Shown here: positions 34,906 through 37,544 of the stretch, in pieces
Numbering within the stretch: position 1 is the first letter of the stretch
Layout: the number at the start of each line of letters is the position of its first letter
Source of the DNA: Azolla caroliniana
Taxonomy: Eukaryota > Plantae > Polypodiophyta
Assembly (NCBI GenBank): GCA_043228905.1
Contig: JBHGNT010000003.1
Location: 23,126,001-23,190,000 of the forward strand
Direction of reading: 5' to 3'
Length of the DNA stretch: 64,000 nucleotides
Translations under genes and position numbers: made by a program
Notes under the pieces: model-generated
What the model saw: the letters and a program-made list of their open reading frames with translations, nothing else
Database searches by the model: none
What the model was told of the DNA's origin: nothing

Positions 34906-37544
34906 TGTTATCCGTATAGGTGTATGGGATAGATATGGTGTAATTTGTATTGTGTGTAAAGTCTAAGGTGTGTAATATGTAGTATGTATTCGAGTGTATG
35001 AGGACGAGTATGTGTGAGCAAATGCACAATTATGTGCATGTGACAAGAGTGTAACGGTCATTATTTACCATTACATTATGTACTATAAAAACCCCTTATC
35101 GGGCACATAAGGAATATAGTTTTCCCCCCCTCATTTTTGTGACATCCTTGTTTCACTCTCTCCTTCTTTCCCTCTAATGTAATCCCTAGGTCCTTCTTTC
35201 CCTCTAATGTAATCCCCCTGGAGGGGGTGAAGCCTAGGGGGTGAATCCATTCTAGGCTTCACCCCCCACTCCAGCAACACTTTTGGCATGCCCGAAAGGA
35301 CGACCCTCCCTTGAGAAGAAGTCACGTGTCCCTCCCTTGCTCTCCCTCTCCGACACTAATCTCTCTCTCTCTCTCATTGCATATCTGTGTTGTTGTGTGT
35401 TGTCTCTCCCCTAACTCATCGTTTCACTTTTGGGATGGAAACCCTAGACCCTCGGAAGAAGAAGAAGCTGAAGGAAGAAGAAGGTAGAAGAAGTGTTACC
35501 TCTTAGAAGAAGGCGCCCCTCAGGGCTTCTTCTTCCTCTTTCAGGCCATCCCCCTTCAGAGTCTCGTCACCGTTCAGTGCTTCACCATCGCCAGCAAATG
35601 GACACTCTATTGGTACAGCAGCGCGAAACGACCGTTTCCTTCCCCCTCCCCTGCAAAACACATCCAAGCCGCCCTCTTCAAACGACATGGCGCAGCGAAA
35701 GCTAAAGAAACAGCCAAAGAAGCGGCTATGGTATCTGAAGCTCCCTCTGCTGAAGGCCAAGATATGGTCATTGATTAATCTCTTGAGAAAACCTTTGGCT
35801 ATAGTAAGAATATCAGTTTTAACTTGGAGATGAGATCGGTAGAGGTCATTTTGCACAGAGTCTGGTATCTTTAGATCTGTGTTGAAGACTGAGCCGAGTT
35901 TTGATGTAGCACCATGGCCAATTGTATCAGCTAGGGCAAAGGATTTTGTGAAGCGTCTCCTTACAAAAGATCGCCATAAGAGAATGACAGCCGCTCAGGC
36001 ATTGGCGCATCCTTGGATACGTGGACATCAAAATATTCCTCTTGATATATTGATATTCAGATCTGTTAAATCTTACCTTCATGCTTCAACTGTGAGACAG
36101 GCAGCGTTAAAGGCATTCTCTAAAACATTATCTTGAGATGACTTGTTTTACTTACAAGCTCAGTTTACGCTCTTGGATCCGTGTAAACATGGCCGAGTAT
36201 CGCTGAAAAACTTTAAAACTGCTCTCTTGAAAAATGCAACCAGGCAATGAAAGATTGGAAGATGCTTGGGATGATCACATCTATTGACGGGCTCCATCTC
36301 AAGATGGGTTTTAATGAATTTTGTGCAGGTGCTATTAGTGTGCCGCAATTTGAAGGGCTGGAACGATGGGAGCTGCAATTACACAGTACAGTGCCTACGA
36401 AATCTTCGAGATGAAGGGAAATCGAGCTCTGATGGGTTTCTTATTGGCTGCAAAATGGACTTTTAGTTCTCTATGTTACTATTAATCTCTTTAGTCTTTA
36501 CTATGGCTAGAATCGAAAGGCTGGAATTTTAATTGAAGAATTGAAGAGAGAAGAGAGGGGCATTCAGAAACTCGAGGGTCAATAGCAAAATTTCAGATAT
36601 TTGAGGGTAGAGAGGATAATTTTGAAAAGTCCAAAAACGAAGAAAGAGAAAAGAGAATGGGGCAGAGCAGAAAATTACAATAACTCGAGGGCATGCACTT
36701 GAATTTCAAAAGTCCGAGGGTAGAAGACAAAATTTCAAAAGCATAAGGGCATAGTATGGAATTTTAGAAACTTGAGAGCACGCAAACAAATTTCAGAAAT
36801 AGAAGGGCATGACACGAGATTTCTAAAACTTGAGGGTACTTAATATAATTTTAGAAAAAAACTTGAGGGGCAAGACATAAGTTTTCGGAAACACAACTCA
36901 TCACTATACATACTAAGCAAGAAAAACATATCGATATCTATATATACACACCCACATACACCCACAATTATTGATAAACCTAAATAATGGTACCATAGTG
37001 GATAAGACGATTGGTGTGCGATCCAATCGTGCGATTATGCTGATCGAACGAGAAGGTTCGTGTAAAGCTAGCTTCAATCGTCGAGCAGTAACCCGGTTGA
37101 AGAATTTCTAACCGTGAGAGAAGACTGATGGAGTTCCGGTCAACAAGAATTTTTTCGGCATAAGCTTGTAGGTCCGACGTGCAATGCACTATCCCACAGG
37201 CGTGCCAGGTGTTATCCGTATAGTTGTACGTGATGGATAAGATGTAATGTGTATGGTGTGTAATATATAATATGTATACGAGTGTGTGAGGATGTGTGTG
37301 TGAGCACATGCACAATTATGTGTATGTGACAAGAATGTAACGTTCGTCTTTTTGTAACGGTCATTATTTACTGTTACATTATGTACTATAAAAACCCCTT
37401 ATGGGGCACATAAGGAATATAGTTTTTTTCCCCTCATTTTTGTGTGATCCTTGTTTCACTCTCTCCTTCTTTCTTTCTAATGTAATCAATCCCCTTGGGA
37501 GGGGGGTGAAGCCATTCTAGGATTCACCCCCCACCCTAACAACA
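34906..37544 (+). mobile_element. Non-autonomous LTR element (TRIM/LARD-like, 2.6 kb) carrying a kinase retrocopy
   Basis: LTRs 34906-35279 and 37210-37544 (TGTTATCC...CAACA); TSD CCCCT; excision restores copia RT STPVNRNLKL; no recognisable gag or pol inside. Confidence 0.93.
35560..36460 (+). pseudogene. CRK: Processed, internally deleted CDPK-related kinase (CRK) copy
   Basis: [40 protein letters not shown] fused directly to [66 protein letters not shown]; stops and frameshifts present; no introns seen. Confidence 0.9.

What the first reader, a model, noticed from the sequence alone, without database searches (positions are those of the whole stretch)
35560..36460. LTR-mediated capture of a spliced kinase mRNA with the catalytic core deleted
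CRK sequence runs uninterrupted across a region that is multi-exon in known plant CRK genes, and it lies between LTRs, consistent with RNA-level template switching. The Gly-loop GRGHF is fused directly to TESGIF at about 35853, removing most kinase subdomains; CATTTTG is a plausible microhomology between the HFG and PFW codons. A second jump occurs near 36430. The element could spread CRK-matching small RNAs.
Basis: partly seen in the sequence, partly recalled or inferred. Interest (0 to 1): 0.7.

Follow-up and report, generated by a model that had tools for sequence, protein, structure and literature searches.

The report
Retrotransposon family stuffed with host mRNAs
A dead jumping gene, likely from a fern, carries intron-free pieces of a kinase gene (catalytic middle missing) joined to a piece of a proton-pump gene, likely copied from messenger RNAs by a copying enzyme that jumped between templates; its sister copies carry many other host gene pieces, so this is a known gene-capture route at unusually high density in one family.

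Summary
Confirmed and extended. Window 34906-37544 is a 2.64-kb LTR element without gag/pol (LTRs 90% alike, target duplication CCCCT). Its middle holds CRK coding sequence that crosses four exon joins without introns; genomic contigs of the same species label show the parent with introns there, although the parent was not found in the assembly. A 586-nt deletion at 35853 removes kinase subdomains II-IX and shifts the frame; the shared CATTTTG lies 6 nt off the actual join. The 'second jump' is a switch to a second gene, a vacuolar H+-pyrophosphatase exon (94%), across an 11-nt overlap; one truncated second copy shares this join. Of 29 full-length family copies, middles fall into 18 unrelated types, 7 traced to host genes (MYB, HSP70s, F-box, KCS, SpoU, DUF7135, CRK), all sense. 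This is Bs1/TRIM-type LTR retroposition, already known; the density within one family is the less usual part. The family also lacks a polypurine tract, which earlier scan notes reported on other DNA of this genome; similar cargo-bearing LTR repeats were noted in other genomes. The small-RNA idea is untested.

The parts
34901..34905 (+). left target-site duplication CCCCT, inside a Copia reverse-transcriptase remnant
   Evidence: RVT_2 hit on 34576-34905
34906..35279 (+). 5' LTR, 374 nt, TG...CA, TATA-like word at 35084-35089
   Evidence: promoter role inferred
35284..35301 (+). primer-binding site for tRNA-Arg(TCT), 14 of 18 bases complementary here; sister copy L170 17 of 18
35302..35461 (+). 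family leader ending in a GAA-rich run; sister copies diverge from the window at about 35461 (L113 at about 35493)
   Evidence: (X1 loose end)
35462..35525 (+). element-to-CRK join zone, GAA-rich, not resolved to the base
35526..35853 (+). CRK exon-1 piece: SPFR repeats, RPFPPPSPAKHI motif, up to the glycine loop; carries 1-nt and 7-nt losses
35847..35853 (+). CATTTTG, shared by both sides of the 586-nt deletion but 6 nt off register; frameshift join at 35853
35853..36434 (+). CRK exons 6-10, spliced (joins at 36005/6, 36112/3, 36221/2, 36283/4), with a stop at 36134-36136 and frameshifts; 94-96% alike to parent contigs where measured
36424..36434 (+). 11-nt overlap in which both the CRK parent and the H+-pyrophosphatase gene fit
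   Evidence: (X13 loose ends at 36424 and 36434)
36424..36507 (+). mid-exon piece of the vacuolar H+-pyrophosphatase gene at G000:C3:26195359-26195441, 94% alike
   Evidence: (H_PPase E 4e-58 for the parent exon)
36506..37191 (+). conserved non-coding 3' backbone of the family
37192..37207 (+). sense copy of a tRNA-Arg 3' end (one base short), 2 nt before the 3' LTR, where a polypurine tract is expected
37210..37544 (+). 3' LTR, 335 nt
37545..37549 (+). right target-site duplication CCCCT

Best explanation
This is a non-coding LTR retrotransposon whose middle is made of a spliced CRK kinase sequence and a piece of a vacuolar H+-pyrophosphatase exon, likely copied from co-packaged mRNAs by a borrowed reverse transcriptase that switched templates at short matches. 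Shown: LTRs, target duplication, tRNA-Arg primer site, four lost introns, 586-nt frameshifting deletion, two parent genes, 11-nt overlap at the gene-gene join, a second copy with the same join, many other sense-strand cargos in the family. Inferred: minus-strand synthesis left the element's 3' backbone, ran onto the pyrophosphatase mRNA, jumped to the CRK mRNA at the 11-nt match, and returned to the element in the GAA-rich leader; the chimera then moved at least once more as a unit. The kinase-core deletion was likely another jump along the CRK RNA at the CATTTTG match followed by a 6-nt loss (about 55%), or a later DNA-level deletion (about 40%). The product is a broken pseudogene that cannot encode a kinase.
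For: Intron loss at four joins against paralogs and against the parent's own genomic contigs. Gene-gene overlap of 11 nt: 37 of 200000 random CRK x pyrophosphatase joins reach 10 of 11 (paralog sequence used as stand-in). 7-nt word within 10 nt of a random deletion: 610 of 200000. Family backbone is replaced, not interrupted: sister copies go on with other sequence after the leader and before the 3' backbone. No poly(A) or cargo duplication. Copy at G000:C7:11.592 Mb shares the CRK/pyrophosphatase join at 90-91% identity. Cargo-to-parent distance (11 of 261, 10 of 253, 26 of 499 differences; 94% for the second gene) is about half the LTR-to-LTR distance, so capture is about as old as this insertion. 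Family: 29 full-length copies give 18 unrelated middles; Pfam hits above cut-off on the sense strand in 4 of 16 representatives and on the antisense strand in 1 of 16, NAD-GH lying opposite HSP70. The MYB cargo lost an exact 75-nt GT...AG segment of an intronless parent, a splice-like mark of RNA passage. DNA contigs from three studies match the window with 0 differences across the deletion join (X1, X3, X4) and two of them (X1, X4) across the gene-gene join.
Against: The CRK parent is not in the assembly as searched, so its sequence at the joins is known only from contig ends. The deletion join is 6 nt off the shared word, and this copy has other small deletions, so a DNA-level origin of the deletion is not excluded. 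The 5' element-to-CRK join is not resolved. 9 of 18 middle types have no identified source and 2 only weak hits. No autonomous partner was identified here. Intron loss was shown for CRK only; the MYB and SpoU parents are single long ORFs.
Confidence: 0.85

Rival explanations
1. The kinase-core deletion arose after integration, by DNA repair or slippage at a short match, and only the capture itself was RNA-based.
For: The join is 6 nt off the shared CATTTTG; the same copy has 1-, 7- and 50-nt losses and LTR indels; the only other cargo copy is truncated before this region, so sharing cannot be tested.
Against: In the MYB cargo two deletions checked are the same in the C13 copy and the C4 set, 92% alike, so deletions in this family can predate spread; one is an exact GT...AG loss.
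Confidence: 0.4
2. A processed pseudogene made by a LINE, or a cDNA patched in during DNA repair, landed later inside an existing LTR element.
For: It would also lack introns; the element is old enough (LTRs 90% alike) to have received insertions, as several sister copies did.
Against: No poly(A), no flanking duplication; cargo ends mid-exon of a second gene; backbone replaced; two genes joined at an 11-nt match; cargos across the family are sense-oriented.
Confidence: 0.07
3. The chimera is kept because it does something: it makes CRK-matching small RNAs or a truncated regulatory protein.
For: Maize TEs with captured pieces act as siRNA reservoirs (PMC13317346, passage read); parent contigs are only about 5% different.
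Against: Only two cargo copies found, one truncated; frameshifts and stops throughout; no small-RNA data examined.
Confidence: 0.12
4. The structure is an assembly artefact.
For: The CRK parent is missing from the assembly, so the assembly is incomplete; one contig in X3 shows a longer pyrophosphatase-to-backbone join than the window.
Against: Exact contigs bridge the deletion in X1, X3, X4 and the gene-gene join in X1, X4 (X1 may be the assembly's source); perfect target duplication.
Confidence: 0.02

Closest known systems
Maize Bs1 and LTR-mediated retrocopies (Tan et al. 2016, PMC5131818; passages read)
   Same: Partial, intron-free host sequences replace the element's interior, short matches at joins, multi-gene chimeras, secondary transposition.
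   Different: Here one non-coding family holds many different cargos; large deletions inside single mRNAs are common; the host is likely a fern; no sign of a new functional ORF as described for Bs1.
Gene-carrying TRIMs, e.g. soybean GmaRetroS15 (PMC4717578; passages read)
   Same: Small non-coding LTR element with intron-free exons of a protein kinase plus pieces of other genes.
   Different: That survey found 30 cargo-bearing elements in 7 of 289 subfamilies, 1.2-1.4 kb; this family is 2-3.7 kb, has 18 middle types among 29 copies and has no polypurine tract.
PPT-less, tRNA-Arg-primed Gypsy lineage noted earlier in this genome (scan notes e1-10597996, e1-10597992, e1-10617911; unreviewed)
   Same: tRNA-Arg primer site after the 5' LTR and a sense tRNA-Arg 3'-end copy 2 nt before the 3' LTR.
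   Different: Those notes describe coding elements; this family has no gag/pol, and its link to them was not tested by sequence here.
Pack-MULEs (as summarised in PMC4717578, passage read)
   Same: One family of ends carrying many unrelated host pieces.
   Different: Pack-MULEs are DNA transposons that keep introns; this is an LTR element with spliced cargo.

Membership tests
LTR retrotransposon (non-autonomous) | two direct LTRs with TG...CA ends | tested here: met
LTR retrotransposon (non-autonomous) | 4-6 bp target-site duplication | tested here: met
   CCCCT both sides; 16 of 26 family copies incl. the window match at 4-5 of 5 bases
LTR retrotransposon (non-autonomous) | tRNA primer-binding site after the 5' LTR | tested here: met
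   14 of 18 to tRNA-Arg(TCT), L170 17 of 18
LTR retrotransposon (non-autonomous) | polypurine tract before the 3' LTR | tested here: not met
   none of 26 printed copies has one in the last 24 nt (read by eye); a tRNA-like word sits there
LTR retrotransposon (non-autonomous) | no gag/pol coding capacity | tested here: met
   no retroelement Pfam hit in 16 representatives on either strand; one partial copy, L157, has a Copia gag that reads as a nested insertion
LTR-mediated retrocopy (Bs1 / Tan 2016 type) | intron loss relative to the parent | tested here: met
LTR-mediated retrocopy (Bs1 / Tan 2016 type) | element interior replaced, no poly(A) or own duplication | tested here: met
LTR-mediated retrocopy (Bs1 / Tan 2016 type) | short sequence match at switch points | tested here: met
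   11-nt overlap at the gene-gene join; the 5' element join is unresolved and the deletion match is 6 nt off
LTR-mediated retrocopy (Bs1 / Tan 2016 type) | secondary transposition with shared joins | tested here: met
   second, truncated copy at C7 shares the join; its own target duplication could not be seen
LTR-mediated retrocopy (Bs1 / Tan 2016 type) | transcription from the LTR | not testable with these tools
   only contigs were available
TRIM | miniature size (most under 1 kb per PMC4717578) with PBS and PPT | tested here: not met
   2639 nt, LTRs 335-374 nt, no PPT; works like a gene-carrying TRIM but is not filed as one
Ty3/Gypsy OTA (Athila/Tat) lineage | RT/integrase phylogeny of the autonomous partner | not tested
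   no coding partner identified; assignment rests on unreviewed earlier notes
CRK (CDPK-related kinase) gene | intact kinase domain with VAVK, HRDLKPEN, DFG, APE | tested here: not met
   all four lie in the deleted 586 nt; the cargo is a CRK-derived pseudogene piece, nearest proteins are fern CRK-like proteins at 80-86%

The most novel reading that the evidence does not exclude
This is a dedicated mRNA-shuffling LTR family: a non-coding derivative of a PPT-less, possibly doubly tRNA-primed Gypsy lineage in which nearly every sub-lineage has swapped its interior for a different, internally deleted, sense-strand host mRNA mosaic, an RNA-based counterpart of Pack-MULEs in a fern; the unusual second-strand priming would be what makes its reverse transcriptase switch templates so often.
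Probability: 0.25. Interest if true: 0.7.

Novelty: new variant of a known kind. Interest (0 to 1): 0.45.

Why it matters
The single capture is a clean textbook case. The family is more useful: at least 195-497 candidate pieces in one genome, with parents 5-17% diverged, give a large natural set of template-switch joins to test rules of mRNA packaging, switch-site choice and post-capture splicing in a seed-free plant, where the papers found gave no such family. If the missing polypurine tract is causally tied to the capture rate, it would connect an odd priming route to gene shuffling. There is no evidence that the CRK chimera itself has a function.

Tried and rejected
Parent CRK in the assembly: DNA search (9 of 9 candidates scored), protein search (62 of 62) and two parent-specific patterns found none; the best locus L019 is a paralog (434 of 583 bases alike; mismatches 36/194, 21/194, 92/195 by codon position). 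Expression: no RNA holder listed; runs guessed to be RNA gave parent-like contigs and no listed piece bridging a cargo join; this says nothing either way. In-frame kinase-less protein: rejected, 586 is not a multiple of three and stops follow. Cryptic-intron origin of the CRK deletion: the 3' side resumes after ...CG, not AG, so rejected. L117-type cargo: no Pfam hit, Atlas hits under 0.9, unidentified. L157 as autonomous partner: its gag follows unrelated sequence and reads as a nested Copia. L120 and L169 were dropped as false primer-site calls and L170 (552-nt interior) as too short before clustering. 13 of 141 open frames from partial copies were left out as duplicates of the MYB set. Paper searches: double primer site in place of a PPT, 0 papers; LTR transduction with intron loss and Pack-MULE terms, 0; some searches listed reviews and the precedents cited, none on such a fern family by title or abstract start. 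PMC8764390 (abstract, outline, passages) added nothing specific. Supplements were not read for any paper; TE libraries of fern genomes may already hold this family.

Full report
Setting. The window is G000:C3:23126001-23190000 of a 523-Mb assembly. The nearest named proteins to the kinase piece are from ferns (Ceratopteris 80-84%, an unnamed protein clustering with Adiantum sequences 86%), so the host is likely a fern; it was not identified further.

The element. 34906-37544 has LTRs of 374 and 335 nt (285 of 317 aligned bases alike, 19 transitions, 13 transversions, K2P 0.109) and CCCCT on both sides. It interrupts a Copia remnant (RVT_2 on 34576-34905; the two right-hand frames tested gave no Pfam hit). 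After the 5' LTR lies a site complementary to tRNA-Arg(TCT) at 14 of 18 bases (tRNA genes: 25 pattern matches; 5 of 7 loci scanned called tRNA-Arg; comparison). Before the 3' LTR there is no purine tract but a sense copy of the same tRNA end, one base short (37192-37207; 1 match in the window, 0.02 expected). With an angiosperm rate recalled from memory the LTR distance would mean a few million years; no fern rate was available.

The cargo. Three-frame translation shows CRK motifs in all three frames with stops, matching the N-terminus of fern CRK P0004. Against the 11-exon paralog L019 the 3' piece crosses four exon joins without introns; segment placement in 7 CRK loci agrees. L019 is not the parent: differences pile up at third codon positions (92 of 195 against 21 of 194 at second positions). 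No closer locus was found in the assembly. Public contigs supply it: in runs guessed to be RNA, contigs match the cargo at about 93-96% and run on into the missing kinase sequence; X13 record 10 fixes the deletion at 586 nt. DNA runs X1, X3 and X4, same species label, hold both the cargo, with 0 differences across 35788-35905 (all three) and 36346-36499 (X1, X4), and a parent-like sequence broken at the four exon joins, one break about 1365 nt long. So the parent has introns and is missing from, or masked in, the assembly.

The deletion. It removes everything from the glycine loop to just before TESGIF, including the VAVK, HRDLKPEN, DFG and APE motifs, and shifts the frame. CATTTTG occurs on both sides in the parent, but the 3' side resumes 6 nt after it. 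A 7-mer shared within 10 nt of a random deletion end occurred in 610 of 200000 trials, so the match is unlikely to be chance, but a clean switch at it would have kept those 6 nt. Other small losses in this copy make a later 6-nt loss plausible and equally leave a DNA-level origin open.

The second jump. 36424-36507 is 94% identical to an exon at C3:26195359 that scores H_PPase at E 4e-58. The CRK parent fits up to 36434 and the pyrophosphatase from 36424 (X13 loose ends): an 11-nt overlap; 37 of 200000 random joins reach 10 of 11. A copy at C7:11.592 Mb has the last 148 nt of CRK, the same join, a longer pyrophosphatase piece and the 3' backbone, 90-91% alike to the window, truncated at an inverted LTR end. 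The window lacks 50 nt present there. There is no poly(A) and no duplication around the cargo, and sister copies show the backbone was replaced.

The family. Searches with the 5' and 3' backbone gave 195 and 497 candidates, 40 of each scored, so the sample is biased to close relatives. Among the 73 loci screened, 31 were called full-length; after dropping two false calls and one very short copy, 28 plus the window cluster into 18 unrelated middles. 16 of 26 copies with a locatable 3' LTR have a 4-5 of 5 target duplication, and none a purine tract. Sense-strand Pfam hits above cut-off in 4 of 16 representatives: MYB, F-box plus HSP70, KCS, DUF7135; two more were traced by DNA to host genes: SpoU methylase (83% over 485 nt to L202) and an HSP70-family gene (73-82% to paralog L198 in four pieces). 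With the window that is 7 of 18; two more have weak hits (NSRP1_N, Hydrolase_4) and 9 are unidentified. The antisense control gave one hit above cut-off in 115 frames, NAD-GH opposite HSP70, which I recall as a known antisense shadow. Next to partial copies (43 loci, 128 of 141 frames sent) further sense hits were two kinases, HSP70, ornithine cyclodeaminase, Ist1 and kinesin; both LTRs were not shown for these. The MYB parent (C15:17.22 Mb, one long ORF) shows three large internal losses in the cargo, one an exact 75-nt GT...AG segment; two checked are shared between the C13 copy and the C4 set, which itself looks segmentally duplicated.

Mechanism. Shown: structure, intron loss, two parents, join matches, second copy, sense bias. 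Inferred: co-packaging of host mRNAs with the element RNA in particles of an autonomous partner, template switches during minus-strand synthesis, further rounds of transposition, splicing and deletion. Untested: transcription, small RNAs, the partner, and any role of the tRNA-like word in second-strand priming.

Comparison. Tan et al. 2016 (PMC5131818, passages) describe this structure, including multi-gene chimeras and maize Bs1; PMC4717578 (passages) reports a soybean TRIM with intron-free casein kinase exons plus two other genes; PMC13317346 and PMC13477047 (passages) treat capture by LTR elements as widespread in plants. The single element is therefore a new member of a known kind. The searches run listed no paper on one non-coding, PPT-less LTR family with this cargo diversity in a fern, which is why I file the whole as a variant. 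Earlier scan notes had already reported the missing polypurine tract in coding elements of this genome and cargo-bearing LTR repeats in animal genomes; none shown described this family (one search found no look-alike).

Verdict. Observation confirmed; interpretation right in its core, incomplete in detail. Interest 0.45.

Noticed in passing
window 37192-37207 and family copies: A sense copy of the tRNA-Arg 3' end replaces the polypurine tract and looks better conserved across copies than the true primer site.
   Followed up: partly
G000 as a whole; runs X1, X3, X4: The CRK parent gene is present in DNA contigs of the same species label but was not found in the assembly; X9, X11 and X5 show two parent-like variants in the 5' region (alleles or homeologs).
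   Followed up: partly
window 36506-36520; X3 record 16: A contig identical to the window over 36393-36520 goes on with 35 further letters and a second copy of the 15-nt word, so the window's 50-nt loss may be a recent deletion between repeats or an assembly collapse.
   Followed up: no
L114:2560-3560 vs G000:C15:17219800-17222031: R2R3-MYB cargo with three large internal losses, one an exact 75-nt GT...AG segment of an intronless parent.
   Followed up: yes
L167 (G000:C14:13.89 Mb), L171, L174: F-box plus HSP70 chimeric cargo in at least three copies.
   Followed up: partly
L145 group (C13:6.59 Mb, C8, C18, C22, C16, C10): HSP70-family cargo with several large internal losses in at least six copies.
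   Followed up: partly
G000:C4:8.67-9.75 Mb (L208-L212): Five MYB-carrying copies share flanks at up to 97-98% identity, suggesting a segmental or tandem amplification.
   Followed up: partly
L017:4605-4660 (G000:C7:11.5926 Mb): The second CRK copy is cut at an inverted LTR end of its own family.
   Followed up: no
window about 8000-15000 and 40900-46900: Two copies, about 32 kb apart and 91-98% alike, of a SAM-dependent carboxyl methyltransferase gene on the minus strand.
   Followed up: no
window 29500-38450: Degenerate Copia element (gag near 30172, SH3 near 33035, RT near 34576) with a solo-LTR-like insert at about 33736-34480 and the element studied here nested in it.
   Followed up: partly
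window 55000-64000: GC-rich Gypsy-type element with RT, RNase H and integrase zinc-finger domains; its LTR-like ends resemble the insert at 34406-34505.
   Followed up: no
window 17630-18100 and 51900-53130: A ubiquitin-ribosomal S27a open frame and an array rich in TAGCTA words.
   Followed up: no
G000:C12:20.04 and 20.26 Mb; C7:5.34 Mb and C1351: Two CRK loci occur as near-identical pairs in the assembly.
   Followed up: no
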